IMG/VR virus record: IMGVR_UViG_3300019378_000003
Strand: one strand, 5' to 3'
DNA from: a virus
Taxonomy: Duplodnaviria; Heunggongvirae; Uroviricota; Caudoviricetes
Length of the DNA: 64,000 nucleotides
The position numbers and the translations under genes are program-made. Below the pieces are notes generated by a model. That model ran no database searches. It saw only the letters and a list, made by a program, of their open reading frames with translations, and was not told the DNA's origin. Below are positions 1-29,175 of this stretch, in pieces (within the stretch, counting starts at the first letter, position 1; every line of letters starts with the position of its first letter).

Positions 1-702
1 TTTCAGATCACGGGCTTTTTCCAAAATCTTAATTAACGTCAAATCACCATACTCGTTGTGAGGAATGCGCACCAATGGCACTCCAATGTCCATACACCAC
101 TCGGTTTTAATTTTGTCTCTTTCTTGCTGATGTACAAAAGTTTCTTCTCCACCCCAAATTTTCACTGGCGCGGCATGCTGATAACCATCGAATTCAATGA
201 CAAAAGCTAATCCTTCTTTTCCAAATACAGCAAAATCAAAAGCGTATCTCTGTAATCCTTCAAAACGATATTGTTCTTGAAAATTCAATCCACCCGCTTG
301 AAGCAATTCACGTATTTTAATTTCGCCTCTCGATGAATGATGACAAGCTACACAAGTATTCTGTCCACTCTTTAGATGATCTGCCTGAATCTGTTTTTCT
401 AAGCCACATCTCACGCAACGACATTTCCAATAACATACATGACTACGATTAATATATCCGATTCGCTCTAATACTTCGAAATCGCCATATTTATCTCCCA
501 CTTCTACTTTCTTGCGTTTGCGCAGTCCAAGAGAACAAGGTTTACAGGAAATTGCCGTTTGACCATTAAGCTTATCAATACGTACACTTACAGTATTACC
601 ACAAAGTTCACATTTACATAAAAAATACTTATTTCCATACTAGGCCGTTTTCACTGGATCCGGCCCTAACACTGTTAAAAATCCACTTTTCTTACCAACC
701 AT
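1..702 (-). CDS. Zinc-finger protein with C-terminal Vsr/DUF559-like (restriction-endonuclease-fold) domain; putative homing endonuclease. Truncated at the window edge (C-terminus missing).
   Basis: Minus-strand ATG at 700-702 reads MVGKKSGFLTVLGP... and has one in-frame TAG. It has several CxxC/CxC clusters, then ...RGEIKIRELLQAGGLNF...YAFDFAVFGKEGLAFVIEFDGYQH..., matching the R.DF...E.DG.QH signature of Vsr-like DUF559 nucleases. It is a paralog of the 5863-6219 gene. Confidence 0.5.
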
Positions 703-1093
703 TACAACCTCCAAATTCTGGACACCACATTACACATTGTCCGTCCGGTCCTTCACATCCAAGAGCCTCAATCGGCAAATCATGGTTTTTGCAAAATTTC
801 TCATACTCGCCCCATCCGCAATTCCATAATACATGCTTCGAAACAAATTCATTTTCGGCACGTCTATAAGCATCCTTCTCTTCTTGTGTAGAAGGACGAA
901 TATTCGGGTCTTTTGGCTCATGATACTTAATAGTCGTAGAGCCATCTGGATTTGTTGTCCATGTAGTAATATTCTTATACCACTCCGAATCTTTCTTAAA
1001 AGGATTTTCAAGAGTAGTAGTTCTGTCCCATTCTTCTCTAGCATGAAATACTACCGCATTCACGCCACTAACTACAATAGGTTTAAAAGACAT
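692..1093 (-). CDS. Hypothetical Cys-rich protein, 133 aa.
   Basis: Uninterrupted ORF ending in TAA. C-terminus is CGWGEYEKFCKNH...GCEGPDGQCVMWCPEFGGCNGW. No homology recognised. Confidence 0.45.
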   Translation of the reverse strand: MSFKPIVVSGVNAVVFHAREEWDRTTTLENPFKKDSEWYKNITTWTTNPDGSTTIKYHEPKDPNIRPSTQEEKDAYRRAENEFVSKHVLWNCGWGEYEKFCKNHDLPIEALGCEGPDGQCVMWCPEFGGCNGW

Positions 1094-1412
1094 CTATATC
1101 GTAATCCCCTCTCACGGCAACCCAATCGCCGACATTAACATGCATTGTCTGCCACTCGTGAAGCCGAACTTCTCTCCACTTGCCGTCTCGCTCAATTCGA
1201 ATATACCAATAGCCCGGCTTATCAACCATTCTGTGGCCATCTGCCATGGTGATAATTTCTCTGGGGTGATACTGCTCCAAGACAACCTCACCTGTAGACA
1301 GGCGTGGGTCATAATTGGATAAATCACCTATCGCAAAAGTAAGGAGAGTGGCTAACATAATCGCCACGACAACCATAAAAACTGGTACAAAAATTTTACT
1401 TGTACGGCTCAT
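1083..1412 (-). CDS. Small membrane-anchored protein (N-terminal TM helix, ~80-aa C-terminal domain).
   Basis: ATG at 1410-1412 (minus) sits after an AAGGAGG-like RBS. The protein reads MSRTSKIFVPVFMVVVAIMLATLLTFAIG..., then ...DGKWREVRLHEWQTMHVNVGDWVAVRGDY. It ends in TAA. Confidence 0.45.
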   Translation of the reverse strand: MSRTSKIFVPVFMVVVAIMLATLLTFAIGDLSNYDPRLSTGEVVLEQYHPREIITMADGHRMVDKPGYWYIRIERDGKWREVRLHEWQTMHVNVGDWVAVRGDYDIDVF

Positions 1413-1731
1413 TCTATGCGTATCCTCCTTGGTAGTCCTGCCAGATACCTTCGTCGCCAAAATACATTACAGCATCTTTCATATTATATCTATCGCCGAC
1501 CCAAAAAGTATACCACTGAGCCGGGCTTACATATTTGGTCCAACGGCAACCATCAAGGTCATCAATGACAAACCAGTAAACGCCACCATGATTCTGACCA
1601 TATTCATCAATATAGCCAGTTACCATACCCTTGTCTACGATAACGCCAGTGTCATTGCTACTACCAACAAGCAAACCACAAACTCCCACAAAAATACAAA
1701 TCAGGCCTACAATTAAAACTACCCATTTCAT
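1396..1731 (-). CDS. Small membrane-anchored protein, paralog of the 1083-1412 gene.
   Basis: ATG at 1729-1731 (minus) is preceded by AAGAGG. The protein reads MKWVVLIVGLICIFVGVCGLL..., then ...DGCRWTKYVSPAQWYTFWVGDRYNM (same DG.WR...W...VGD pattern). A TAG at 1414-1416 is read through to TAA at 1396. Confidence 0.4.
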
Positions 1732-1763
1732 AGTATTTACCTCTTGTTTCATTTTCTAAATAT

Positions 1764-1792
1764 ATTATATCAAAATTTTTTAAAATTTTCAA
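1764..1792 (-). promoter_or_regulatory. Leftward sigma70-like promoter (TTGAAA-N17-TATAAT on the minus strand).
   Basis: The reverse complement of 1787-1792 is TTGAAA and of 1764-1769 is TATAAT, 17 nt apart, immediately upstream of the leftward gene start at 1731. Confidence 0.4.
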
Positions 1793-1803
1793 ATTGAAGA
1801 TTC

Positions 1804-1832
1804 TTGACACGAGAAAAAATTTTTGTTATAAT
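1804..1832 (+). promoter_or_regulatory. Strong consensus sigma70 promoter, TTGACA-N17-TATAAT.
   Basis: 1804-1809 is TTGACA, followed by the 17-nt spacer cgagaaaaaatttttgt, then 1827-1832 TATAAT. GAAGGAGG follows at 1842-1849. This implies a very short (~10 nt) leader for the first rightward gene. Confidence 0.65.
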
Positions 1833-1849
1833 AATACTAACGAAGGAGG

Positions 1850-2920
1850 TTGATTATTATAATCAAGTTAGATTATACGATCGAGTCTCCGGAAGAGCGT
1901 AATAAATTAGTAGAACAGATTTTAGCTGAAACTCCCGACCCGAGTGAACAGTATCTTGAAATTCTTGCTGATTATTTAGTTCTTTGTATGGAGAAGCAAG
2001 AGCGTAGAGAGAGAAAGATTCTTACGGATAATAGAATGGCTACTATTAATAAACGTGAGACATCTTTTGAAGGTCTTATCGGGCAGTTAGAAAATGGCGA
2101 AGATGGTATTTACAATTTAGTAACGAACGATAAAAATATTATATTTCAACCTAAAGTAACTATTACAAAACAAGATATTGAAGAAATTGCGCCTTTACGA
2201 CAACTTAAAGAATCAATAGCTAGATGGGAAGAGTTGTCAAAGACTGCTACTGGACGCGCCGCGTTTATCGCGAAATCTACACTCATTGAATTACGTAAGG
2301 ATTAGTATATTATAAAAAATGCTTATCGTAAACCAATTGTTTTTACTCGATTAACACGAAACACAAGCACTGGAGTGTCGCTCCCCTGGGATGAGTGGAT
2401 TGATGAGAATGGAGATATACAATATTCCGGTCTTTCTTTTTTGAATCCCGATATTATTAGTTTAATTTTATGTAATTATTCAAAACTAAAAGAAGATAGT
2501 TGGGATTAGTTCCAAGGGGATACTTGGTACATGATGCTGGATTTTGATAATATTGCCGAAAAAGCATTAGCAAGTTTCCCTATGTATCGCCGCATCGTTG
2601 AATACAAGGTCGATGGATTGTCCAATCTGACTATTCAAAAAGCAATAGAAGAAGAATTTGGCTTCACCCATTCCATTGAATACATTAGCTCTTTATGGCG
2701 TAATAAAATCCCAAAACTAATTGCTTCTGCCGCAACCGATGAATGGCTCCTTTGGTATTATACTGAAAAAGAACGTGGCCAATGGAAGCGCTGTACTCGC
2801 TGTGGTCAAGTTAAGTTAGCCCATTCACGCTTTTTTTCCATAAATAAAACATCTAAAGATGGATGGTATAGTTTATGTAAGAAATGCCGCAACTCCAAAA
2901 ATCGTAAAAAGGAGGGCTAA
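1850..2920 (+). CDS. Hypothetical protein with C-terminal Cys4 zinc ribbon, 356 aa, 2 in-frame TAG.
   Basis: Single frame-2 reading frame from TTG 1850 to TAA 2918-2920, through TAGs at 2303 and 2513. C-terminus reads CTRCGQVKLAHSRFF...SLCKKCRNSKNRKKEG. The start is uncertain: the RBS abuts the TTG, and the next in-frame ATG is at 1988. Confidence 0.45.
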
Positions 2921-2923
2921 TTT

Positions 2924-4105
2924 ATGGCAGTTGGCAATAATACTTATTACTGTAAAACTTGTAATAGAACTATGGATGAAACTTAGTTCTATACTTCAAG
3001 AAGATTAGACCGTTATCCAAATGATGGTAAGATGCCCGAATGTAAAAAGTGTCTTACTCGCCATGTGGATAATTGGAAACCTGAAACTTTTAAATGGATT
3101 CTTGAAGAAATTGATGTTCCCTACATTGAAGAAGAATGGACCAAATTAATGAGTAAATACTGCACTGACCCTTCCAAGGTCACTGGTATGACAATTCTTG
3201 GTCGCTATCTTTCTAAAATGAAATTGACCCAATTTGAAAATTATCGTTGGGCTGATACAGAAACTATTTAGGCTCGTTTAAATGCTAGTAAAGCCGAAGT
3301 AATGACTCGCCAAGGTTATTCAACAGAAGAAATTGAGGCAGCCATTGCGGCAGGCAATGGTATTGAAAAACCTGAAGGTTGGGACACTTCGCCATCGGCG
3401 GTAGATGCTCCACCTCCAATTGATGCTTTTGAACCAGTTGATTTTAATGATGACCTTACAGAAGAAGATAGAAAGTATCTTGCTATCAAGTGGGGAAAAA
3501 CTTACAAACCCTATGAATGGGTTCAATTAGAAAAATATTATCAAGAAATGATGGCATCTTTTGATATTCAAACGCCATCTCATGAAGATTATTTAAAACT
3601 TATTTGTAAAACTTCTATTAAGGCGCATCAACTTATTGACTTAGGAGACATTGAAGGCTTCCAAAAGATGTCTAAAGTTTATGATGCTTTAATGAAATCT
3701 GCTAAATTTACAGCAGTATAGAATAAAGCTGAATCTGGTGAGTTTGTAAATTCTATTTCTGAATTGGTTCTCTTGTGCGAGAAAGAGGAAGGATGCATTC
3801 CTCGTTTCTATACAGATAAACCAAAAGATAGAGTAGATGAAACACTTGCCGATTTGCGTGGCTATACTAATACTCTTGTTACCGAAGAAATGAATTTGGG
3901 TAATCTTATTGAATCTGCTTTGAAAGCACTACAGCGAGAAGCTGAACGTGAAGAAGATGAAGATATTGATGACGATGATGAAATTTTTGATATGGATAAT
4001 ATTGATGATTTAAAAGATAGCGATTTTGAAGAACATTACGACTTTTTGGACGATGAAGCCGAAGCTGACTTCCTTGATATGCAAGATATATTAGAGGAGG
4101 AATGA
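2924..4105 (+). CDS. Putative terminase small subunit. Zinc-ribbon N-terminus, acidic C-terminus, 393 aa, 4 in-frame TAG.
   Basis: ATG 2924 to TGA 4103-4105, followed at once by TAA and the terL ATG (tgaTAAatg). N-terminus reads YYCKTCNRTMDE...MPECKKCLTRH. The C-terminus is an extremely acidic tail. The call rests on position directly upstream of terL. Confidence 0.35.
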
Positions 4106-4108
4106 TAA

Positions 4109-5851
4109 ATGGCTTTATAGGATTTATTAAACCTTTCACAAGATAGATAGAAAATTGGATTATCAGAAGAACGAGTAAGGGCTATTATTCCTGTTGCTCG
4201 CGACTATATTTCTTACTGGCGTGAATATCCAGATATGTTCGTCGACTTTATGGCGGGTAAGTGGCAAGCCAACCCGCCTAAAGAGACGCTTAATCTATTC
4301 TTCTACCAGCGAGTATTTTTGAGAGCCGCTATGCGTTATAAATACGTATATGCGGTTTTTCCGCGTGCTTATTCTAAATCTTTCCTTGCCGTTTTGATTC
4401 TTATGACTCGTGCCGTTTTATATGCCGGCTCTAAGTTATTTGTAACATCTGGTGGTAAGGAACAGGCTTCTGGTATTCTAAAAGAAAAAGTATAGGAAAT
4501 TTGTACTTTGGTGCCGGGCTTCGCAAAAGAGATTGATTGGGGCCGTGGTAAAACTTTGGAAGGTAAGGATTATTGTAAGTATATTTTTAAAAGTGGTTCT
4601 TATATTGATAACTTGGGCGCTTCTGAAAAATCAAGAGGTAAGCGTCGTCATGGCGGACTCGTTGAAGAGTGCGTTGGTGTCGACGGAACTATTTTGAACG
4701 AAGTTATTATTCCAGTTATGAACGTTTCTCGAAGATTGCCCGATGGCACTTCTGATGATAATGAAGTTCTTAATAAGAGCCAAATCTTTGTTACGACCGC
4801 AGGTTGGAAGAATACTTTTGCTTATGATAAACTTATTCAAATGCTAGTTGGTTAGATTACACAGCCTGAAAAGTTCTGTATTATGGGTGGTACTTGGCGT
4901 ATTCCTGTTCTTATGAAATTACTTGATAAGAACTTTGTGCGCGACTTGAAATTGGACGGTACATTTAATGAGTCCTCTTTTGAACGTGAATATGAATCTA
5001 AATGGTCTGGTACTATCGAAGATGCATTCTTCCGTGCAGAACAATTTGACCGCAACCGCATTCTACGTCAGCCTGAATATGAATATTCCGGACGTTCAAT
5101 TAAATCGGCATATTATGTTCTGTCTGTTGACGTTGGCCGAAAAGGTTGCGATACGGTAGTTTGTGTATTTAAAGTAACACCTTAGACTGCCGGTGTGTCT
5201 ATTAAAACATTGGTAAACATTTATACACTTCACAATGAACACTTTGAAGATTAGGCTATTGCACTCAAAAAACTTTATTATAAATATAAGGCGCGTCGTA
5301 TTGTTATTGACGCCAATGGTCTTGGTATTGGTCTTGTCGACTATATGGTAAAATCTTAGATGGACCCAGATACGAATGATATTTATCCTGACTTTGGTGT
5401 AGAAAATGATCCCGATGCTGAATATAAAAAGTTCCGCACAGATGCGTGTGAATATGATGCTATGTATTTGATTAAAGCTAATGCGCCAATCAATACTGAA
5501 GCTCATGCCAATGCGTAGACGCAACTTTCCTCTGGTAAAGTAAAAATGTTAATAGATGAACGTGTGGCCAAAGTAAAATTGCTTGGAACTAAACGCGGTC
5601 AAGAAATGAAGCCTGAAGAAAGGGCGGAATATCTTAAACCATTTACCCTTACCTCCATATTGAAAGAGGAAATGATGAATTTGCGTGAAGAAAATGAAGG
5701 CGTAAATATCATCTTAAAGCAAGCGAATAAAGGTATAAAAAAGGATAAATTTTCTGCTTTTGAATATGGTTTATACTATATTAAATAGGAAGAAGATAGT
5801 AAAAAGCGTAAACGAAAAGGAAAAATATCTGATTTTATGTTTATGAATTAA
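4109..5851 (+). CDS. terL: Terminase large subunit, 580 aa, ~9 in-frame TAG.
   Basis: Six track ORFs (4235, 4508, 4883, 5546...) are all in frame 2 and separated only by TAG. The gene ends in TAA at 5849-5851, followed by AAGGAGG plus ATG. ATPase-like N-terminus reads ...FLRAAMRYKYVYAVFPRAYSKSFLAVLILMTRAV...LFVTSGG. RNaseH-like nuclease region reads ...YYVLSVDVGRKGCDTVVCVFKV...RRIVIDANGLGIGLVDYM. Confidence 0.8.
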
Positions 5852-5862
5852 GGAGGTCCCTC

Positions 5863-6219
5863 ATGAGAGCATCACGAGGAGAAATTAAAATTCAAGAGAT
5901 ACTCCAATAGTCTGGCTTGCGATTTACAATGGAACAGTCATTTGAGGGACTGAATAGTTCTAATGGTCGCCCATTGCGTTTTGACTTTTGCGTTTATGAT
6001 GATGATGGCAATATTGATTTTTTAATTGAATATCAAGGTAAGCAACATTATGAGCCAAGTCAAAAATTTGGAGGCAAGAAGGGTTTCTATTAGTAGCAGT
6101 TTAATGATAATAAGAAGCGTCGCTTTTGTGCATTGAATGAAATTACTTTAGTTGAAATTCCATACACAGAAGAGAATCTTATTTCATACGACTATATTTT
6201 AGAAAAAGCTGGTTATTGA
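5863..6219 (+). CDS. Small Vsr/DUF559-like endonuclease (homing-endonuclease-like), 118 aa, 3 in-frame TAG.
   Basis: GGAGG at 5852-5856, then ATG 5863 to TGA 6217-6219. Reads RGEIKIQEILQQSGLRF...RPLRFDFCVYDDDGNIDFLIEYQGKQHY, the same signature and a clear paralog of the nuclease domain in the 1-702 gene. It is inserted between terL and portal. Confidence 0.5.
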
Positions 6220-6232
6220 GGAGGTGTGAAAA

Positions 6233-7831
6233 TTGCGAAGAAGATAGGATGAAATCCGAGCAAAAGGATTTTAGATGACACCTCGCCCAATAGACTATGA
6301 AGGCCCCATGTCTTCCATGGATTTCGCCAAGATTAGAGTTGGTCTTTAGACTCTTGATGATGCTATTTTGGATCTTGGTAGTTTAAAAAAGGGTAATGTC
6401 CGTTATACAAATAAGAATACAATTCTTAAGGCTTTGGCCGAAAGAGATTATCCATTGCTACGAGAGATTTCAGAATACTGGTTTGAAAACAGTGGTATTT
6501 ATGAACGTCTTTGTAAGTATTTTGCTTATCTATATAGATATGACTGGTATGTTGTTCCTTATGTTGAGGATGACAGCATTAAAGAAGATAAAATACTTGC
6601 TGAATTTAGTAAAGTGCTAAATTATATGGACGCTTCAAATATAAAATACATGTGTGGTAATATTGCCCTTGAAGTCGTAAAGAATGGCTGTTATTATGGC
6701 TATATTGTAGACAGCGAAGGTGGTATTACTATTTAGCAATTGCCGATTGGATATTGCCGCAGTAGATACTTTGTTGGCAATCAGCCCGCAGTTGAATTTA
6801 ATATGAAATTCTTCGACGATAAATTTCCAAACCTTGAATATCGCATGCGCGTATTGAAAATGTTCCCGCCAGAATTTGCTAAGGGTTATGTTCTTTATAA
6901 AAAGGGTAAACTCAAGGATGAAGATGGAACAGGTTCTGATGGATGGTATCTATTAGACCCAGCTTGTGCGATTAAGTTAAATATTTGCGGCACTGACTAT
7001 CCTATGTTGGTTAATGCGATTCCATCTCTTTTGGATTTGGATGCCGCGCAGGATTTAGATCGTCGTAAGACAATGCAGAAACTTCTCAAAATTATTATTC
7101 AAAAATTGCCGCTTGACAAGAATGGCGATTTGATTTTCGACGTTGATGAAGCAAAAGACATTCATAATAATGCCGTTCAAATGTTAAAGAAGGCAGTTGG
7201 TGTTGACGTTCTTACTACTTTTGCTGATGTAGAAGTTGCCGATTTGGCTGATAAGAATACTACAACTTCAACTGACGATTTGAATAAGGTTGAACGTACT
7301 GTTTATAATGCTCTTGGCGTTTCACAGAATCTTTTCAATACTGATGGTAATATCGCTCTTGAAAAGTCTATTCTTAACGACGAAGCATCTATGAGAAGTC
7401 TTATTTTACAGTTCTAGAATCTTTTAAATAAGATTGTTAGACATAAATTCCCTGGGAAGAAGAAATATAATTTCCGCGTCTTTATGTTGGAGACGACAGT
7501 CTACAACTACATCGAGCTTGCGAAGATGTATAAAGAGCAGGTTACTATTGGTTATTCCAAGATGTTGCCACAAATTGCTATGGGACATTCCCAGAGTGCA
7601 GTTATTGCTAATGCTCATTTTGAAAATGAAATTCTACATCTTTATGAAATTATGATTCCTCCTATGATGTCTTCCACTATGAAAGGTGAGGACATTTTAG
7701 GGCAAAAAGGTCAGGGGAAAAATTAGGTAAATTAGGCACAGTCTACTGAACAATCAAAAGGTGGACGTCCTGAAAAGCCGGATGGTCAAAAATCTGAAAA
7801 GACCATTCAAAATAAGGAGTCAGCCAGCTGA
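6233..7831 (+). CDS. Portal protein (candidate), ~532 aa, ~7 in-frame TAG.
   Basis: TTG 6233 lies 8 nt after GGAGG (an alternative start is ATG 6275). Track ORFs 6368, 6740 and 7484 are all frame 2. The gene ends at TGA 7829-7831. Size, position after terL and the acidic LDLDAAQDLD... segment fit a portal. Confidence 0.55.
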
Positions 7832-17787: not shown

Positions 17788-20700
17788 ATGGCTCAAGGAA
17801 CTACTTAGTGGACTTTGTAGATTAGTGCTGACACTAGTCGAGCTAAAAAAGATATTAATAATTTAGTATAGAGCTTAAATAAAGTTAATACACTAAATTT
17901 AGATTAGCTCGGTATGTCCACACAAATTCGTGAGGCTGCGACTGCTGCGCAATAGTTAAAATTGCATTTATAGGCAGCAACTAATGTCAATACTGGTCAA
18001 TTAAATCTTGTAGAATTTAATAAAAGTATTTAGCAATCAGGATAGTCAATGGCATCGCTTATGGCTACTTTGGCTCAAGGTGGTTAGACTGGTCAACAGG
18101 CATTCCAATAGATGGCAACTACTATTGCAAATACTTAGGTGCCGATAAAACAAACAAATAAATTATTATCTAATATGATGACAACTCTTAAAAATACTGT
18201 TAAGTGGGAATTGTCATCTATGTTTATTCGTGGTTTACGCACTTCAATCACTGGCGCTATTGGATATGTTAAAGATTTAAATGGTGCTTTAAATGATATC
18301 CGTATTGTTACAGGTAAAAGTGTTGAAGAAATGGCTCGTTTTACTGATCAGGCGCGTGCTGCGGCGAGGGAATTATCAACCACAACTAAAGCATTCACTG
18401 ACGCTTCTTTGATTTATTTCCAATAGGGTGACTCGATGGAAATGGCTGCTAAGAAAGCGGCGATTACTATTAAAGCAGCAAATGCCTCTTTTGGATCTAC
18501 GGCTTCTGAAATGGCAGAACATTTAACTGCTGTTTGGAATTCTTATCAAGTTGGCGCAGAAGAGTTAGAACATTATGTTGATATAATGGCGAAGCTTGGT
18601 GCGAACACTGCAACCAGTATGGAAGAAATTGCTACTTCAATGCAAAAAGTTGCTGCTACTGCGAATACTGTTGGCGTTTCTATGGAACAAGTTTCTTCGA
18701 TTATTGCCACGGTATCTTCTGTTACTCGCGAATCTGCAGAATCAATTGGTACTTCTTTTAAAACAATTTTTGCTCGTATTGGTGACTTAAAATTAGGAGA
18801 GACTCTTGAAGACGGTGTAGATCTTGGACAAGTATCTTCTGTTTTAGATAAAATTGGAGTTTCTATTTTAGATGCCAATGGGCAAATGCGAGACATGGGC
18901 GCAATCGTTGAAGATTTAATGGGAAAATGGCAGACTATGACTCGAGCAGAGCAAACTGCTGTGGCATAGGTTGTAGCTGGTAAGCGTCAATATACTCAAT
19001 TAATTGCTTTAATGGAAAATGATGAAGCGTATAAAAAAAATAAAAGTTTAGCAGAGAATTCTGATGGTGCACTGCAAGGAATGCAAGATATTCATGCTGA
19101 AAGTGCTGAAGCTGCAGCTGCGCGCACGAAAGAATCTATTTAGACTTTATATAGTACGCTTTTAAATGATAAAGCTTTGATTGGTTTTTAGAAAACAATT
19201 AAAGGTATTGTTGATAATGTTACTAATTTAGCTAAATCATTAGGTGGTCTTAAAGGCATAGTAGGAGCAGTTGGTGCGATTTTAATGCGTACATTTAGTG
19301 GAAAAATTGCTTCTACTATTAAATCAATGGGTGCTGGTATAGCTACTTTTATGACAAATGGTTCATATAAATAGTAGTATTTACAGACTTTAGAGAGGAC
19401 TAATAGTGAATTATCAAATAGTCGCAGTTGGGGAGATACAGCTTCTTTATAGGCTACTAGCAAATTAATTGACTTAAAAAGCAAATTGCTTAATATGGAA
19501 AATTCTTTAACAACAGCACAAGCTCAGCAAATGCAGTTAGCTTTAAGTGGAGCAAGCGAACAAATTGGTACTTTAAATTAGTTAGAACAAGAATACTTAG
19601 ATGTCAAAAGAGCAATTGAATCTGGTACTAGCAGTATGGCTGGTTGGGCAGCGCAAACTTATTAGGTTAAATAGAAACATAATACGGTAAACATGACATT
19701 TAACAAATAGCTTGCAGCACAAATGAGTAGTTAGCATTTTATGAAGGGATCAGGCGACAATAGAATGTCTGCAGGAGGATTCTTTTCTGAGAATGCAATA
19801 CTTAAGGCTAATAATGGGGCGACTGCTGCGAATATGTTGCCACAAATTAATTAGTTAAATCAAATTTCGTCTATTGGACAACAAACTGCCAGAGCTTTAG
19901 AGTAGATTTAGAATCCAGCAAAATTGACTGAATAGGAATTTGCCAAAATTACACAATAGGTTGAGCAGATGAAAGCTGCTTTAAAAGGTACCGCTCGAGC
20001 AAATGCTTTAGATGGAATTACAGCAGAAACATTAAGAACAAAAGAAGGTATTAAATAGTTAAGTGACGCAATTACTTTATTAAATGAAAAATCTCAAACT
20101 GATTTTAATGGATTTACTACGGCTTTTAGGGCGGCATTGAACGCTATGCCTGATGGTGCCTTGAAAACTAGATTAAGTACTTTATTTGATGAATTTTTGA
20201 AAGATTCTGATCATGGTGCAGAAGCACTCTAGCGCTTTAGGTTACAAGCTGAGGCAGTAATGGGTAGTTTGAGTGGTACTGAATCTGCGTTAGATAAACT
20301 AAATGGAAAAATGAATCAAGCCTTTGGTGCGATTAGCAAAGGTGTTGGTACTGCAATGAGTGCAGTATCTGGATTTAATATGCTATCTTAGAGTACTTAG
20401 CAATTAGCCTCTGGTAGCGATAATTTAAGTAGTAATATCGCGACATTGTTGAGTGGTTTAATGATGATTATTTCCATTGCACCTGCTATTGGTACAGCAT
20501 TGACTACTGCGATGGGCCCAATCGGTTGGATTATTGGTGCAATTGCGGCGATTGGTGTTGCAGTTGCGGCAGTTACTGTTGGTATTAGTAAAGCTAGAAA
20601 AGAAGCGTATCAAGCTAAACAAGAATCTAAATTAGAAAAAATTTAGGAAGAAAATGAAATACAAAATGAAGAAGTAAATAATAATCATAATTTAATTAAA

Positions 20701-23700
20701 AGTTATAATGATTTATACGCAACTTATTTAGAAACTGGCGAAGGACAAGAAGAACTTGCTGCGAGCGCAAGAGCATTAGCGGATGCTTATGGATTAGTTG
20801 GCGCGAATGTATTAATCGCAAGCGGTAATTTTAAAGAGTTTAATAATTAGCTTGCTTAGCATATGGGTTTTGATCAAGAATTAAGTTATTATCGTAGACA
20901 AAAAAATACTTTAATCGGTGCTTTTGCTGATAATAGTAAAAATTCAGTTTATTAGATGAATGATTCTAATATCATGGAATTTGAAGGAGAACTAAGTCCA
21001 ACATATTCAGGACCAATGGTTGGTAGTTCTTTATATACTAGCGTGCCGAGTGAAACAGATCCATAGGTAGAACGTACTGTAGCTACGGGAGTTACTTCAT
21101 ATTATGATGCTGCGCAATAGGCTTTGGCTCTTGATCCATCTTTATTTTTAACATATGAAGGTCCTACTTCACAAGTTAAACAATATTATTCTCCTTTGGG
21201 CTGGTCGGCGAGAAATAAAAATCCCACAGGAAGACGTGTAAGTGCTGAACAGGCAGGAAATATTTATGGCTATTATGATACAATGTTTGCAGGCAATAAA
21301 GATTATGCTGATGAAGCTTTTATCGCTGTAATGAATCAAGCGCGAGACAAAGAAGGAAATCCGCTTAATATAGACTGGTAGAGTATTATTGATACAGCAT
21401 GGAATAATGATCAAGATATAGGAGAAGCTATCACAGCAGCATTAATAGAACAAAATCCTGATTGGGAAAGTGTAATATAGCTAAGCGCTTTTGAGTATGT
21501 TGATGATGGATTATCTTATGGAAGCGTTAATACAGAATTAGCTGATGTAGTAAATAAATGGAATACTAAATTTACTGACGCTTTTTTTGGTGAAAATGGT
21601 TTATTCGGACAAACAGATTATTTGCACGAAGTTCTAGGAGAAGATTTGTCGTTAGATTGGTCTTCTTTAACTGGAGAAGAAAAAGTTAAAAAATTTACAC
21701 AAATCGCGGATTCAATTGATGCTATTGATGTTGAACTGGAAGACGTAAAGCTTAAAATGAGTGAATATGACGAAAACAGTCCTGAGTATATGATGCTTGA
21801 AGATTATTATAATTATTTGCAAGGTGTATAGACTACTTTTAAAGATATTATTAATTATGATGATTATATAGCTGACGGTTCGACAGTAGCAGAAGCTATT
21901 GCCGAGATCGAAGAAGTTGAATCAATGGAAGCAAAAATTATAGCATTAAAAGCTTCTATGGGACAGTTTATGGGTCAATCAGAAGACACCATGGGATTTA
22001 ATGCATTTTTTGATGGGGTAAATAGAATGGAAGATGCTATTGATTCAACAGCGGCGTCATATGAAGAATTACAATAGTATTTAGAACAAGAAAACGGACA
22101 ATTTGTCAAAGATGCTGAAGGTAATTATAAAATATAGGCTGGAATGGAAAAAGAGTATGCTGCAGCACGAAGCAAATTAGCATCATAGTTATTATTAGAT
22201 TACACTGCATTTGATGATTATGTTTATATGTATCAAGATTTGATATCTTTATTTGATAATCAAAATGAAATTGATATTGCGGCGAATTTTTTAGATATTT
22301 TTGATATTAATTCAGTAGAAGAAGTTGACACTGCTTTTTATTATGAATTATAGCAATTCATTCAGAGAGATGCAGAAATGGCAAAGGGTATGTTGACAGC
22401 ATATCAAAATCAAAGATAGATATGGCTTAATTAGGGTTTTAATAATGACGAAATTTAGGAAAAAACACAATAGTGGTTTGATGATATTGGTGAAGAAGTA
22501 TTAGGTAAAATGATAATAGCAAATCAAGACACAGCCGCTTTTAATGCAGCAAATAAAATGAGCAATTCTGCACAAACTTGGGCTAAAGAGTTTAAAGACA
22601 ACGACGGAGAAATGTCAATTGATGAAGCAACAGATATGTACAAATAGTATGCTGAATATCAAAAAGAATTTGAGGAACACGACTTAGGTGTAATTAAATC
22701 TTGGGATGAATTTGTTGCGATGGATTATACCGAACGAGCCGCATATTTAGCAACATTAGCAGAACAATCTGAAGATAATGCTGAGCGATTAGCAGAAATA
22801 GCATTAGCTTCTGCTAGCGATGTTCGTGCGGCGTGGGAAGCGGAACATGGATATAATAGAGATTCATTTGAAACATTTCGCACAGGATATAATCAATATG
22901 CCGCAGCAGTAGCTGAAGATGGCTATAATGTAACATATGATACTGTTGATGGAAATACTGTTGCAGTAGTAAAAGATACAGATGGTCATATTATTGATGA
23001 AGATACCTTCCGTCAAAATACTGGATATACTTTTAGTGATGCAATTCAATATTAGGGAGCTTCTTCTTTAATTGCTGCAGGTAGTCAAGTTTATCTTGAG
23101 GAAGATAATGCTATAGCGACAGTTGAAGCTTTAAAATTAGTTTCTGATGGTGTTCTTACTGCGGAGGAAAAAATGACTGCAGCTTCTGACGCAGTTGCAG
23201 CTTTATCCAAAGGCTTAGAACATTTTAATGAGACAGGTCAAATTAGTGTTGAAGTATTTAAAACATTAGGCAAACTGGGAATTCAGGTTAATAAAGATGA
23301 TATAAAAAATATTCAAGATTTTATTAAATTGATGAATCAGGCGCGTTAGAAAGGTCAATAGGCTGTTGATAGTCAAATTGCTGAATATAATAAATCTTAT
23401 GCATAGCAATATGGTGCTTTTAATGTAAATTAGACTTGGGATATGTCTTTAGTTGAGACAAATGCAAACTATAAAGCACGTTATGATGCTTGGGCAAAAA
23501 TTATGGATTTAATGACTCAAGTAGAAGGTATAGATGCTGAAATTAATAATGCTAATGCTCAAATAACACAATAGCAAATTGATTTATTTGATGCATAGAT
23601 GGCATCTTTACAATAGTCTAGAGATGAATTACAAAAAACTGCAGAAGCGATGAAAGAAGCTGCGGATATTTTATCGGGTGCTATTGAAGATGGTTCTTTG

Positions 23701-26700
23701 TCTTTTGCTGATTAGGTTAAATTAGATGCAGCTGGAATTGCTGCATGGGAAGAAGGCGCTACTTATGCTGAAAGGATTGAAGCTGCTGCATTTGGTGCTG
23801 CAAAAGCAACTAATTAGGCGATGACAAATCAATTAGATTTAAATACTGCTATTGATTAGGCTGAATCATTATTTAATATTTATACTAATTTAACTAGTGG
23901 AAACATAACTTTAAAAGATAGTTCATTATTTGATTCTTCTGATAGTCTTATTTCTTGGTTAATGGATCCTCAATTTGATGCATCAGGTTTAAGCGATGGA
24001 GCAAAAAATGCGATTATTGAAGCAGATAAAATTGTTCGATAGACTTTAGATGTAAATACAGCGACTACAGGACAATATTGGAAAGCGATGCAAGATTAGC
24101 TTAAGATTATGGACCAAGAAGGAGCAGAAGCTTTAGCTTTAATTATGGCTGAAGGTAAAGACAGTATTGTTTCTTTATATAGTGAATTAGGATAGCATGA
24201 AGCAGATTTGGCAAATCAATTTGTTGAAGATTGGATGAATGCATTTTAGACTGTCGCTGATATGCGTAAATCTATTTTAATGGGTGAAGATATTAGTGAT
24301 GATTTAACTTCTAGCTTTGATAATTTTAATCAAATTGCAAATCAATATTCGGGCGGTGGTGCGGCTCTTGTAGCAGACCAATTAAGTGGTAATTTAGATT
24401 TAGCTAAATTAACTCTTCCCGATCCAGATAAAATGGTTGAAGGTATTCGTGATGCTCGCGGTCTTGGTAAAAATGATACTATTTTTACTACAGATTCTTA
24501 TGGCACAAAACATGCATCTACTTGGTGGGAAGATATTGGTGCACGAATGGGTATGGACCGTAATGCAACCAAAGCAGATGGTACGGCCATGTATGCAGAA
24601 GGTGCAGACGGTGATGCGGAATACGTAAAGGCAGTACAAGAAAGAATCACTCCATAGTTAGAGACTTTACTTAAAGGTTATGATTTAACTGGTACAGATT
24701 TTGAGACTATTGGTGATGTTATTTTAGGATATTTTGCAGGAGCGCCAGAAGCAATTGCTATATTAAATGATGCTGCGAATAAAACTTATGAAAATTCAGA
24801 AGCTTATGGTGAATATCTTGAAAAGGAAAATATTTTAAGAGAAGCAGAAGCAGCATATTAGACAGAGGTTGAAGAACAACAAAAAATTCAAGATGAAGCT
24901 CTTGGCTTTGCAGATGCAACAGAAGCTATTCATGCTTTAGCTCCAGAGGATCGTGATGCGGCTAGTATTGCATCTATTTTAGAATAGCAAGGTATTACTT
25001 AGGATGATTATATTGCTGCTCTTCAAGAAAAAGGTTATGATGTTTCTAGTTTAGAAGATATCGCAGGATTGAGTAATGATGCATTATTAGGTGCGGAAGA
25101 TGCTTTTTAGACTGATGCTACTGAAGCAGGTGCTATTATTATTTCTGCTGGCGAAGCTTTTAAAGCAATTGTAACCGGAGAGGGAGCATTAGGTGAAGAT
25201 GGTACTGGTATTACTCTTGGCGATACAACTTTTACAGAAGGTGCTGGATTCGCTGAAACTAGTGATGCAGTATAGCCAATGATGGAAACTGTTACCGAAA
25301 ATACTGAAGCACAAACTGTTTTAGCAGAAGGAATTTCAACAGTTGATCCTAGAGAAGATTGGGAAACTGAAATGGGACATTTTGGTTTAGATGCTAAAGA
25401 AGTAGATGAACTGGGTGATTCAATTCAAAAAATGGCTAAAGAATCTGAATTGCTTGGAGATAATTTAGAGACTGATGCTGAAGCAGCGGATAAAGTCGCA
25501 AAAACTTTTAAGCGTTATAATAAAGCTGTTGATCAAGTTGCAGATAGTTATGATGATTGGAAGAAGGCTTTAAAAGGTAATAATATTGATGAATAGGCTA
25601 AAGCATTAAAAGAAATGGATAAAGCTTTTTCAGATATGCTTGATTTAGATTATGATAGCTTATCAGATGATTTTGTCCAAAATGCAGAAAATCTAGAATT
25701 AATGAAAGAAGCTGCAGAAGGCAATGAAGAAGCTTTTGATTAGTTGCAAGCAAAAGCAGCGGCAGATTTTATTATTGAAGGACAAGTTCAAACAGAATTT
25801 GATCAAGAATCATTTGATGCTGCGGCCATGGAATTGGCAACTGCTTATGATGATTTGCCAATTGGAGAACCAATTACACTTGGTGAAAACACTAATGTAA
25901 GCCCTGCTTTCTGGGCAGCGTGCGAACAAATTTTACAAGGTTTTGCAGCAACTGCAGCGGGTGCAGCGCAAGCAGAATAGGCTTTTGCTTCTCTGGGATA
26001 TGACGCAGAAGTAGAAGTTGTTCCACAAGAAACTCCTGGATATTCTATTTCTTATCCAGTATTTACACAAGGTCCTTCTGTTGATGTTGGTGGTCCTGGG
26101 CAAACTATGGCTACGGTTGAAGCTTCTACTGCTACTATTGACGTTCCTGGTTATACGCAAAATGTTTTAGCTATTAAATCTATTACCCCAAATGGCGCAG
26201 GCTTTGGCGGAAATGTCAGAGGCGGCGGTGGAGGAGGAGGTGGAGGTGGAGGAGGAGGCTCCAAAAAGTCCACTCATGATAAACGTAAAGCTCCAGAACG
26301 GTATCATGAAAATACTAAAAATTATGATCGAATTTCTGAAGCACTTGAAAAAGTAAATAAAGCTAAAGATAGAGCTTTTGGTAAATCTTATCTTAAAAAT
26401 CTCGAGAAAGAAAGAGAATTATTAAATGCTCAAGTAAACCTCCTTAAACAAAAAGAAGATGAAATTCAAAATTATTATGATGAAGATTTAACTAATCTTC
26501 AAAATGAACTTAATGCTTTAATGGGTGTATTAGGTGGAGAAAATATTGCATTAGATATTGATCCTAATACTTTAAATATTAATAACTGGGAAGAAATTGA
26601 AGCTAAAATTACTGAATTATATAATAAAAAAGCTGATTTAAAAATGTCTGATGAAGAATGGGAAAAAATTACAGAGCAATTAGAAAAATATGAAGAAATG

Positions 26701-29175
26701 AGAGATCAATACGAAGAGACTGTTGCTCTTCTTGCTGAGAACGGTTTAACTATTGAAGATCTTTTAAATCAAATGTCCGAGCTTGCTCTTGAAGAAATTA
26801 CTTATAAAGTTGAATATCAAGTTGAATTAAATGACGCAGATTTAGAACTTCTTGAATATTATCAGGAAGTTTTTGAAGATGACTTAGGAAGCGCAAGTGA
26901 ATTAATGGCCAATCTTTCTAATTAGGCAGGAATTGCTCAAAGTAATTTAAGCATTTTGGAAACTGGATTAAACGAGCTTAATGCGGCTTATGCAGCTGGT
27001 GAAATTAATGCAGCAGATTATCAAGAAGGTATTGCAGATATTAATAGTCAAATGATAGATTAGTTAAGTGAATTGCATGATATTCAAGATGAAATTGCAG
27101 AATTGTATGCTGATACTCTGGATATGGCTCAAGATGAAATGGATGCTCATTTAGACCATTTAGATCATATTGCAGATGTTATGGAGCATTATGCAGAAAT
27201 TTTCGATTTAATGGGTCAAGGTACAGGTCGAGCTTATAAGAATTCTTTGATGGATATTTAGATTGCCGCGAATAAAGAATCATTAACTGCATAGTCAGAT
27301 TTGTTTAATGAATTACTTGAACGCAAAAAAGAATTTGAAGCAAATATAGATGAAAATGGTAATTTCTCCACAGAACTTGAATAGCAACAATATGAAGCAT
27401 TACTTGAAACCTTAACAGAAGTTCATGGCAATATGATGGATGCTGTTGCAGAAGGCATGGATCTTCTTGCTGCAAAATATGAAAATACTATTGAAAAGAT
27501 TTTTGAAGATTTTGAAGAAAGAATGCTTGGTGCCAATCAGTCAATAGCTGATGTGGCAGATAAGTATGAATACTATCAAGAAACTCAAAATCGTCAATTA
27601 AGTGCGGCGCAAGAACTTTATGAAATGTCTAAATTAAATCGTTAGATAGAGCAATCTATTGAAGATAGTACCACCAAAGCTAATAAATAGATCCTTAAAG
27701 ATTTACAAGCTCAAATTAATGCAAGAGCAGAATTGAAAGATATGACTGAATATGATATTGAAATGATGAACTTACAATATCAATTAGTATTAAAACAAAT
27801 GGCTCTTGAAGATGCTCAAAATGCAAAGAGTGTAGTAAGACTTACTCGCGATAATGATGGTAATTATGCTTATCAGTATACTGCTGATGATGAAAAAGTT
27901 GCTTCTGCATATCAAGAATATGAAGATGTATTACAACAAATTAATGATCTTGCTTCTGGACGAGTTGGAGAACTTGAATAGGCAATGTTGGATGCACAGC
28001 AAGAATATGCTGATGCCGCAAAAGAAATTGCTTTGGATATGACTTTAACTGAAACCGAGCGTCAAGCAAAATTAGAAGAATTGGCTAAGAGATATGAAGA
28101 AACTTTACTTTATATCCAAGAAGAATATGGCTACGCTACGAGCGATTTAAAGAATAATTTGGCAACTACTTCAGATTGGTATAATACTACTCTGATAGAA
28201 GACAGTAATGCTGCGCAAGAACAAGTAGCAGATATGATTAAAAATGCTGAAACTTGGGCACAAGAATATGCTAATATGTTAACTGGTGAAAATGGTTCTG
28301 TTCTAAGCACTTGGAAAGATTATGCTGATGCTATTGCTACAATGTCTGAATTTATGGAAACTGCCTTAACAGAAGAAGGTATGAATAATTATCAAGCTGC
28401 CGCAGAGGCTGCAGGTCAAGCTGCCGCGGATGTAGTAACTATGCTTGGTGATGAATTAACAGATATTAATGCTGTAACACAAGCTTGGAAAGACTAGGCT
28501 GCTGCGATGGACGAAGCAATTAAACGTTATGAAACTTTGGCCGCAAAGATGAATGATGTTATGCGCATGCTTGCTGAATTGGAAGAGGCTAAAGGGCCTG
28601 CATTAGGAGATGCTTCTAGTAATACTTCTGATGATGGTAAAGATGTTTCTTTCGCTGATCCTGAAATTCTTGCAGCAGTATTTGGAGAAGAACTTGCTTC
28701 TCAATATACTGAAGGCAAAATTACTTAGGATTAGTTACTTGCAGAAATTATTGGCACAGTAGATAAAACGCAAGTTCAATGGGATGATTTAGAAGATGCC
28801 ATGTAGGTATTGTGGGAATATCAATTAGACAAAGATAAAGATGAAACTAATGAAGAATATAAAAAAGCAAAAGAATTAATTGATGCCACTGGATTGAATT
28901 TAGAAGAAATTTGGGCATAGCTTGAAGCGCAAACGTAGGCTGAAATGGCGAGTATGTCTTCTTGGGCTATGGCATAGACTTTGATTAAAGATTCTACAGT
29001 TAATTATAATACTACTTAGAATATTACAATGACAAATGAATTCCCGAACGTTGAAAGTATAGAAGATATTAAATAGGCATTTGAAGAATTATTCTTATAT
29101 GCTTCTTAGTATGTTGATAGCGATAAAGCTAAAAAAACTTCTGCTAGTGGCGGAGGTGGAGGAGGAGGGCATTAA
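17788..29175 (+). CDS. Tail tape measure protein, 3795 aa. About 100 in-frame TAG, all in one frame.
   Basis: Sixteen track ORFs from 18139 to 28728 all share frame 1. The checked junctions contain only TAG. The gene starts at AGAAAGGAG plus ATG 17788 and ends at TAA 29173-29175 inside a terminator hairpin. The N-terminal ~400 aa match the TP901-family tape-measure core (...GKSVEEMARFTDQARAAARELSTT...SIGTSFKTIFARIGDL...). A hydrophobic segment lies at 20446-20560. A Gly13 run lies at 26218-26260. Confidence 0.8.

What the first reader, a model, noticed from the sequence alone, without database searches (positions are those of the whole stretch)
5863..6219. Two paralogous Vsr/DUF559-like endonuclease genes, one wedged between terL and portal.
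The 118-aa protein at 5863-6219 and the C-terminal domain of the leftward gene at 1-702 share RGEIKI(Q/R)E(I/L)LQ..GL.F and the (R/Y)(F/A)FDF..... (V/L)IE(Y/F)(Q/D)G.QH endonuclease signature. A small free-standing nuclease between terL and portal is the classic homing-endonuclease location. The left copy is fused to multiple zinc-finger-like CxxC clusters, a plausible DNA-recognition module. Both contain recoded TAG. They are candidate mobile elements that may target terL or portal alleles of related phages.
Basis: partly seen in the sequence, partly recalled or inferred. Interest (0 to 1): 0.55.

Follow-up and report, generated by a model that had tools for sequence, protein, structure and literature searches.

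The report
Fixed Vsr-fold nuclease between terL and portal
The small gene between the terminase and portal genes does encode a Vsr-like nuclease from a known homing-endonuclease family, but every relative examined carries it at that spot under strong purifying selection, so it looks like a retained working gene, not a jumping one; the zinc-module copy at the window's left edge is the one that still looks like a possible mobile element.

Summary
Gene A (5863-6219, +) encodes 118 aa with three in-frame TAG (=Gln) codons. Gene B (1-702, -) runs off the window edge. Its C-terminal domain is 41% identical to gene A (E 9e-24).

The mobility reading fails for gene A. All 156 testable relatives carry it at the same junction, as do the Enterococcus phages H1/EF5 and phage Phass-1. 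The sister clade (SPbeta, 949, PJN02, Sundance, KKP_3916) has terL directly followed by portal.

All carriers form one clade on a portal tree. Gene A diverges in step with terL and portal, dN/dS is about 0.14, and D41, E56, H62, D82 and K85 are invariant in 116 unique orthologs (E7 in 114).

So gene A is an anciently acquired, now fixed nuclease. I infer a packaging-linked role like the HNH accessory nucleases.

Gene B is patchily distributed in a hypervariable arm and remains a plausible free-standing homing endonuclease.

The parts
5863..6219 (+). Gene A: a free-standing 118-aa Vsr-fold nuclease consisting of the catalytic domain only. In-frame TAG (Gln) codons lie at 5908-5910 and 6091-6096.
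5850..5856 (+). AAGGAGG ribosome-binding site for gene A. It overlaps the TAA stop of terL (5849-5851), which indicates operon-style expression with the packaging genes.
   Evidence: Read directly from the sequence.
4109..5851 (+). terL (YonF-like large terminase), 580 aa with 9 in-frame TAG codons. Walker A K90, Walker B E187 and nuclease-type acidic residues D341, D401, D411 and D546 are conserved.
6275..7831 (+). Portal protein (YonE-like), 518 aa. It starts 56 nt after the gene A stop.
   Evidence: PHROG 2739 portal protein, 9e-81. Gene order in relatives.
1..342 (-). Gene B, C-terminal Vsr-fold nuclease domain (residues ~121-234). It is cut by the window edge, with about 3-16 codons missing.
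   Evidence: Pfam DUF2726 scores 25.6 bits against a cut-off of 24.7. The model matches DUF559 structure 3hrl with probability 0.99.
343..702 (-). Gene B, N-terminal region with two repeated Cys-rich (zinc-ribbon-like) modules, presumed to bind DNA. One in-frame TAG lies at 640-642.
   Evidence: Cys patterns. The repeat consensus G..FG.LTV...W.C.C.CG...SCGC appears twice in the family alignment. Two beta-rich modules at residues ~2-58 and ~68-118 in the model of the 98%-identical homolog P0121, pLDDT 87. PHROG 559/374 matches.

Best explanation
Gene A descends from a Vsr-fold (EDxHD/DUF2726-type) homing-endonuclease family. One such gene, or just its catalytic domain, entered the 13-25 nt spacer between terL and portal once, in the ancestor of a large clade of SPbeta-like phages. 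That clade includes this TAG-recoded phage, many gut-metagenome phages, Enterococcus phages H1/EF1/EF5/VRE9 and Phass-1.

Since then gene A has been inherited vertically as a fixed gene of the packaging operon. It has no DNA-binding domain but keeps a complete active-site signature, and it is under purifying selection at least as strong as that on terL. It is therefore an active nuclease kept because it benefits the phage, not a currently homing element. These steps are shown.

The mechanism is inferred. It is translated late together with terL and portal and acts on phage DNA during packaging, most probably as an accessory nuclease that cooperates with terminase in end formation or in clearing the DNA substrate. 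This would parallel the HNH accessory nucleases of HK97-like phages and Skunavirus HrdP, probably acting as a dimer like the isolated I-Bth0305I catalytic domain.

Gene B is a separate member of the same family with the usual two-part architecture of zinc modules plus nuclease. It lies in a hypervariable leftward arm and is the better candidate for a genuine free-standing homing endonuclease.

Confidence by layer: about 0.85 that gene A is fixed, vertically inherited and selected; about 0.35-0.4 for a specifically packaging-linked role.
For: Fold and family:
- AlphaFold pLDDT 95 with an alpha-beta-beta-beta-alpha-beta core.
- PHROG 'homing endonuclease' profiles score 8e-28 to 5e-33.
- Predicted viral structures (BFVD) that match are annotated homing endonuclease, DUF2726 or VSR homing endonuclease.
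- 34,887 clusters match the family profile, mostly ~300 aa with the domain at the C terminus.

Fixation:
- Gene A is present, full length, between terL and portal in 78/78 loci with terL 69-94% identical.
- It is also present in 78/78 more divergent loci anchored on the portal.
- It is present in Enterococcus phage H1/EF5, MT836163 and Phass-1, and L112-L116.
- It is absent, with terL abutting portal, in KKP_3916, Sundance, PJN02, 949 and SPbeta.
- All carriers form one clade on a portal NJ tree.

Vertical descent and selection:
- Pairwise distances of gene A correlate with terL (r 0.79) and portal (r 0.84), about as well as terL does with portal (r 0.86).
- Mean divergence is 24% for gene A, 26.5% for terL and 41% for portal.
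- dN/dS is 0.14.
- S4, D41, E56, H62, D82, K85 and C89 are invariant and E7 is present in 114/116 unique orthologs. The same signature holds in the two-domain family members.

Operon position: the RBS overlaps the terL stop, and in-frame TAG codons occur as in the late genes.

Precedent for conserved small nucleases next to packaging genes being needed for packaging: HrdP (PMC12967558) and HK97 HNH as discussed in PMC10055350. The isolated I-Bth0305I catalytic domain dimerises (PMC3239194).

Gene B:
- It is intact in close relatives with dN/dS 0.12.
- Only 4 database homologs were returned.
- A 33%-identical homolog occurs in L016-18, and no other locus in that survey shows a gene B-specific match.
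- The surrounding arm is not conserved beyond the immediate subclade.
Against: - No direct evidence links gene A to packaging. The inference rests on position, conservation and analogy.
- terL keeps its own nuclease-type acidic residues both in phages with gene A and in one without it (KKP_3916), so terminase does not obviously need a second nuclease.
- The sister clade packages DNA without gene A.
- Members of this family are otherwise annotated as, or known as, homing endonucleases, and terL is a repeated target of such elements in relatives (EF5 and L113-116 have interrupted terL). A purely selfish origin, and some residual selfish activity, are therefore plausible.
- The mapping of catalytic residues onto Vsr/I-Bth0305I is by position in the predicted secondary structure, not by residue-level superposition.
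- dN/dS estimates come from highly diverged pairs (dS ~1.3) and are rough.
Confidence: 0.45

Rival explanations
1. Gene A is still a selfish free-standing homing endonuclease that has swept to fixation. It persists because it cuts the terL/portal junction or nearby sequence of co-infecting relatives that lack it, giving homing or marker exclusion, and perhaps because its own-locus cutting promotes recombination.
For: - The family is the Vsr-like homing-endonuclease family.
- An intergenic site between two essential conserved genes is typical for free-standing homing endonuclease genes (PMC10055350).
- The sister clade shows the 'empty' junction.
- terL in relatives is invaded by other endonuclease-carrying inserts.
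- The active site is intact.
Against: - No empty allele exists among 156 relatives, so no targets are available within recombination range. The only empty junctions are in phages whose terL is 24-47% identical at protein level, too divergent for homologous repair.
- A fixed selfish endonuclease is expected to decay. Instead every ortholog is full length, with dN/dS 0.14 and an invariant active site.
- Its divergence tracks its neighbours.
- It has no DNA-recognition domain, unlike most of the family.
Confidence: 0.2
2. Gene A is a retained nuclease with a late function unrelated to packaging. Possibilities are degradation of host or competitor (satellite) DNA, a Vsr-style nicking/repair role on phage DNA, or RNA cleavage or binding like the RAP/FASTK domains that share the fold.
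For: - Domesticated homing-endonuclease domains used in phage-satellite conflict are cited in PMC10055350.
- Conservation and selection fit any beneficial enzymatic role.
Against: - The invariable position inside the terL-portal operon across very deep divergence is not explained by these roles.
- No partner methyltransferase or other associated gene was seen next to it.
- It is 118 aa against 155 for the Vsr chain, and neither gene A nor its family profile matches Vsr at sequence level, so it is not Vsr proper.
Confidence: 0.2
3. Gene A is a decaying relic of an old insertion with no function.
For: It lacks the DNA-binding region typical of the family.
Against: Of 119 unique orthologs, 116 are 105-140 aa and 81 of those are exactly 118 aa. 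The catalytic signature is invariant, dN/dS is 0.14, and the protein is less diverged than terL.
Confidence: 0.02

Closest known systems
EDxHD / Vsr-like homing endonucleases (I-Bth0305I, PDB 3r3p; phage 'Hef'-type enzymes)
   Different: There is no detectable sequence-level match to I-Bth0305I. Gene A has no NUMOD/HTH DNA-binding region, and gene B has zinc modules instead. Neither sits in an intron or intein (no Rfam hit). Gene A is fixed in its clade instead of sporadic.
E. coli Vsr very-short-patch repair endonuclease (PDB 1cw0)
   Different: Only 15% identity and no sequence-level hit. Gene A is 118 aa against 155 for the Vsr chain. No mismatch-repair context or Dcm partner was seen. It is related in fold, not an ortholog.
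Pfam DUF2726 (PF10881) and DUF559 (PF04480) restriction-endonuclease-like domains
   Same: Gene B passes the DUF2726 threshold (25.6 vs 24.7 bits). One gene A ortholog is pre-annotated PF10881. DUF559 structure 3hrl matches both models.
   Different: Gene A is below the DUF2726 threshold (17.1 bits). DUF559 is below threshold for gene B (12.9 vs 20.6 bits) and absent for gene A.
HNH accessory nucleases of phage packaging modules (HK97 gp74; Skunavirus HrdP)
   Same: These are also small nucleases of homing-endonuclease ancestry, conserved next to terminase genes across a phage group. HrdP is essential for producing infective virions while DNA replication proceeds without it (PMC12967558; PMC10055350). 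Gene A shows the same conserved adjacency.
   Different: The fold differs completely (Vsr/PD-(D/E)xK-type versus HNH). Gene A sits between terL and portal instead of upstream of the terminase genes. No functional data exist for gene A.

Membership tests
Vsr-like / PD-(D/E)xK restriction-endonuclease fold superfamily | An alpha-beta-beta-beta-alpha-beta core that superposes on solved members | tested here: met
Vsr-like / PD-(D/E)xK restriction-endonuclease fold superfamily | Conserved metal-binding acidic residues and a catalytic His/Lys on beta2, beta3 and alpha2 | tested here: met
   D41 (beta2), E56 (beta3), H62, D82 and K85 (alpha2) are invariant in 116 orthologs and in 126 two-domain family members.
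Pfam DUF559 (PF04480) | HMM score at or above the gathering threshold (20.6 bits) | tested here: not met
   Gene B scores 12.9 bits, E 0.1. Gene A has no hit.
Pfam DUF2726 (PF10881) | HMM score at or above the gathering threshold (24.7 bits) | tested here: inconclusive
   Gene B scores 25.6 bits (passes). Gene A scores 17.1 bits (fails). Ortholog P0092 and homologs P0121 and P0124 are pre-annotated PF10881.
EDxHD homing endonucleases (I-Bth0305I type) | Sequence homology to the I-Bth0305I/Vsr catalytic domain | tested here: not met
   phmmer and a profile search against all PDB sequences found neither 3r3p nor Vsr at E <= 10. The relationship is seen only at fold level.
EDxHD homing endonucleases (I-Bth0305I type) | N-terminal NUMOD/helix-turn-helix DNA-binding region | tested here: not met
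   Gene A is the catalytic domain alone. Gene B has two Cys-rich modules instead.
EDxHD homing endonucleases (I-Bth0305I type) | Residence in a group I intron or intein | tested here: not met
   Both are free-standing ORFs. There is no Rfam family hit anywhere in the window. Gene A lies 11 nt after the terL stop and 56 nt before the portal start.
Homing endonuclease gene (functional class) | Sporadic presence/absence among otherwise closely related genomes | tested here: not met
   Gene A is present in 156/156 testable relatives and in cultured relatives. For gene B the test is inconclusive. It is present in the window's subclade and, at 33% identity, in L016-18, and no other locus in that survey shows a gene B-specific match. 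The whole arm is unalignable there, so no empty site could be defined.
Homing endonuclease gene (functional class) | Cleaves the allele that lacks the gene and is copied into it | not testable with these tools
   This requires biochemistry or mixed-infection genetics.
Packaging-module accessory nuclease (HK97 gp74 / HrdP type) | Conserved adjacency to terminase/portal genes across the phage group | tested here: met
Packaging-module accessory nuclease (HK97 gp74 / HrdP type) | HNH (beta-beta-alpha-metal) catalytic domain | tested here: not met
   The fold is Vsr-like. Any resemblance would be functional analogy only.
Packaging-module accessory nuclease (HK97 gp74 / HrdP type) | Required for DNA packaging or stimulates terminase cleavage | not testable with these tools
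   No functional data exist. terL retains its own nuclease-type residues.

The most novel reading that the evidence does not exclude
A Vsr-fold nuclease domain captured from a homing endonuclease has become an obligatory component of the terminase-portal DNA-packaging machinery across a very large clade of gut Firmicutes phages, including both TAG-recoded and standard-code members. This would be a second, independent recruitment of a homing-endonuclease nuclease into phage packaging, convergent with the HNH accessory nucleases of HK97-like phages and Skunavirus HrdP.
Probability: 0.3. Interest if true: 0.6.

Novelty: new variant of a known kind. Interest (0 to 1): 0.4.

Why it matters
If gene A is needed for packaging, it would show that phages recruit nucleases of different folds from selfish elements into the packaging motor. 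It would also give a testable, highly conserved target in a phage group that is abundant in the human gut and includes cultivable Enterococcus phages used in therapy research.

More practically, the result is a warning about annotation. Orthologs are deposited as "homing endonuclease" (VRE9 phages) on the basis of family resemblance, whereas their distribution and selection pattern are those of a core gene.

The case also gives a clean natural contrast within one genome. One family member is fixed and stripped to its catalytic domain. The other keeps DNA-binding modules and is patchily distributed.

Tried and rejected
- Sequence searches of gene A and of a family profile against all PDB chains gave only chance hits. 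The link to Vsr and I-Bth0305I is structural only.
- NCBIfam gave nothing useful.
- Pfam gave no hits for terL, portal, the YonG-like protein or the sigma-like protein. PHROGs and homology to annotated phages were used instead.
- Rfam found no intron or other RNA family in the window, and ARAGORN found no tRNA.
An alignment of database orthologs was used instead.
- I looked for an empty-site allele for gene B by aligning the leftward arm to relatives. Close relatives all carry it, and more distant ones share no alignable DNA left of position ~1730, so no insertion boundary could be defined.
- I considered that terL might have lost its nuclease so that gene A replaces it. I rejected this because D341, D401, D411 and D546 are conserved in phages with and without gene A.
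- I considered that Q58 (D in many family members) marks a specialised subfamily. I rejected this because Q is common at that position in two-domain members too.
- NG86 dN/dS values for terL (0.34) and portal (0.50) come from near-saturated pairs and should not be over-read.
- The gene B protein search returned only 4 hits and did not even return the gene A family. This reflects the word-index sensitivity of that tool, so "rare" is a soft statement.
- The Foldseek search of the gene B homolog model found no convincing match for the zinc modules.

Full report
**What is there.** The window comes from a large phage that reads TAG as glutamine. Read with TAA/TGA as the only stops, the + strand from about 1,990 onward resolves into long contiguous genes.

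The region of interest has this order: a sigma-like gene (1988-2920), a YonG-like gene (2924-4105), terL (4109-5851), gene A (5863-6219), portal (6275-7831), then YonD-like and YonB-like genes. This is the SPbeta-type head/packaging module.

Gene A is 118 codons with TAG at codons 16, 77 and 78. An AAGGAGG site overlaps the terL stop.

Gene B (1-702, minus strand) is 234 codons with one TAG and runs off the window edge. Homologs are 237-250 aa.

The two share 41% identity over 114 residues, E = 9e-24. Database orthologs and standard-code relatives carry Q at the TAG positions.

**What kind of protein.** Pfam is nearly blind to the domain. DUF2726 scores 25.6 bits for gene B, just above threshold, and 17.1 bits for gene A, below it. 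DUF559 reaches only E = 0.1. PHROG profiles labelled homing endonuclease, HNH endonuclease or intron-encoded nuclease match at 1e-18 to 1e-33.

The family is very large. 34,887 clusters at 50% identity match the profile. Most are 250-400 aa proteins with the nuclease at the C terminus, and about 10% of the best hits are free-standing proteins of about 120 aa.

Viral structural neighbours are annotated DUF2726, homing endonuclease, restriction enzyme or "group I intron-associated VSR homing endonuclease".

**Is gene A mobile?** No sign of it.
- I anchored a survey on terL in IMG/VR. All 78 loci with sequence downstream of terL (terL 69-94% identical) carry a full-length gene A between terL and portal.
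- A second survey was anchored on a divergent portal. It gave 78 of 78 again.
- The gene is also at this position in MT836163 (63% identical), Enterococcus phages H1 and EF5 (53%; also matched in EF1 and VRE9_1-4), L112-L116 (48-50%) and phage Phass-1 (41%).
- In Alicyclobacillus phage KKP_3916, Brevibacillus phage Sundance, Bacillus phage PJN02, Lactococcus phage 949 and SPbeta itself, terL is followed by portal after 13-25 nt.
- On a portal tree, all carriers form a single clade and the non-carriers form the sister group and outgroup.

The simplest history is one insertion into the terL-portal spacer followed by vertical descent.

**Selection.** Gene A's pairwise distances correlate with those of terL (r 0.79) and portal (r 0.84) about as well as those two correlate with each other (r 0.86). 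Its mean divergence (24%) is lower than that of terL (26.5%) and portal (41%). dN/dS is about 0.14.

Of 119 unique orthologs, 116 are 105-140 aa, 81 of those are exactly 118 aa, and none is disrupted. S4, D41, E56, H62, D82, K85 and C89 are invariant across the 116, and E7 is present in 114. The same signature characterises the two-domain family members.

By position on the predicted secondary structure, D41, H62 and D82 correspond to the metal-binding Asp, general-base His and second Asp of Vsr and I-Bth0305I (D196, H213, D222; PMC3239194). This mapping is an inference.

A selfish endonuclease that has run out of empty sites should decay. This one has not, over a divergence at which terL has dropped to 48% identity.

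**How it probably works.** Three things are shown. Gene A is a catalytically competent-looking nuclease domain without any DNA-recognition module. It is fixed inside the terL-portal operon. It is conserved as tightly as terL.

The rest is inferred. It is probably made late, together with the packaging proteins, and acts on DNA in concert with them. The precedent is the HNH accessory nucleases: HK97 gp74 acts cooperatively with terminase in cos-site cleavage in vitro, and HrdP of Skunavirus sk1 is essential for producing infective virions although DNA replication proceeds without it (PMC12967558; discussion in PMC10055350). The isolated I-Bth0305I catalytic domain dimerises, so a stand-alone domain could be a working enzyme.

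Against this reading, terL keeps its own nuclease-type acidic residues whether or not gene A is present, and the sister clade packages without gene A.

I put about 0.85 on "fixed, vertically inherited, selected nuclease" and about 0.35-0.4 on a specifically packaging-linked role. The main rivals are a fixed but still selfish endonuclease (about 0.2) and another late nuclease function, such as action on host, competitor or satellite DNA, nicking repair, or RNA (about 0.2).

**Gene B.** Its N-terminal half holds two copies of a Cys-rich module. The family consensus G..FG.LTV...W.C.C.CG...SCGC occurs twice. The model of its 98%-identical homolog P0121 shows two beta-rich units before the nuclease domain (pLDDT 87). 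Many family members share these modules, often in more copies.

Its nuclease domain is no closer to gene A than to dozens of other family members. The two are therefore independent members of the family, not recent duplicates.

Gene B is intact and under purifying selection in the window's closest relatives (dN/dS 0.12). A 33%-identical version sits in the same arm in L016-18, and no other locus in that survey shows a gene B-specific match. The whole leftward arm (1-1752) is unalignable beyond the immediate subclade.

That pattern fits a free-standing homing endonuclease or simply an accessory gene in a fast-turnover region. No empty site could be defined, so mobility remains untested.

**Comparison and novelty.** The domain family is known and is already annotated in deposited phage genomes, including orthologs of gene A labelled "homing endonuclease".

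The difference here is the combination of three features: a minimal catalytic-domain-only architecture, fixation at one junction of the packaging operon across a very large clade, and core-gene-like selection. That makes it a variant of a known kind, not something new in kind. The finding is moderately interesting, mainly as a candidate second example of a nuclease from a selfish element recruited by the phage. It is testable in cultivable Enterococcus phages.

Noticed in passing
L026 5735-7250 (also L029, L030): In three relatives, about 1.5 kb is inserted between terL and gene A. It carries a 144-aa ORF and a 117-aa ORF with a GxxxGxFxxxHxGH motif. By eye these look like a HAD-type phosphatase and a cytidylyltransferase; I ran no family search on them. 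Gene A still directly precedes portal. So the terL/gene A boundary accepts cargo while the gene A/portal link stays intact.
   Followed up: partly
L015 (Enterococcus phage EF5) 5600-7363; L113-L116 2082-3907: terL is interrupted in some relatives. In EF5 the insert carries an annotated HNH homing endonuclease (phage intron). In L113-116 it encodes a 358-aa protein with a DUF723 match. These are the genuinely sporadic endonuclease elements of this phage group, and gene A stays in place downstream of them.
   Followed up: partly
window 17788-29175: With TAG read as Gln there is a single 3,795-codon ORF containing 92 in-frame TAG codons, followed by a 1,992-codon ORF with 34. These are very long late genes; the phAss-1 paper reports tape-measure proteins of about 3,150-3,200 aa in related phages. 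I did not analyse them.
   Followed up: no
window 2924-3080 and about 2760-2915: The N terminus of the YonG-like protein and the C terminus of the sigma-like 310-aa protein each carry a CxxC...CxxC zinc ribbon. Both match the same segment of PHROG 2255 ('HNH endonuclease', profile positions ~46-93). Zinc-ribbon modules of endonuclease type therefore recur in the packaging-operon proteins.
   Followed up: no
window 1-1860: The leftward gene arm (1-1752) shares no alignable DNA with relatives beyond the immediate subclade. The divergent intergenic region (about 1753-1860) and everything to its right are conserved. This is a sharp boundary between a hypervariable accessory arm and the conserved structural module.
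   Followed up: partly
window 1-64000; gene A orthologs in L001-L196: The 64-kb window has no tRNA gene (so no suppressor tRNA) and no Rfam hit, despite heavy TAG recoding. Gene A orthologs carry from 0 to 5 in-frame TAG codons, so the clade contains both recoded and standard-code phages with the same gene order.
   Followed up: partly
window 692-1093 (-): A 133-aa ORF immediately upstream of gene B, overlapping its start by 11 nt, has a Cys/Trp-rich C terminus and no PHROG match.
   Followed up: no
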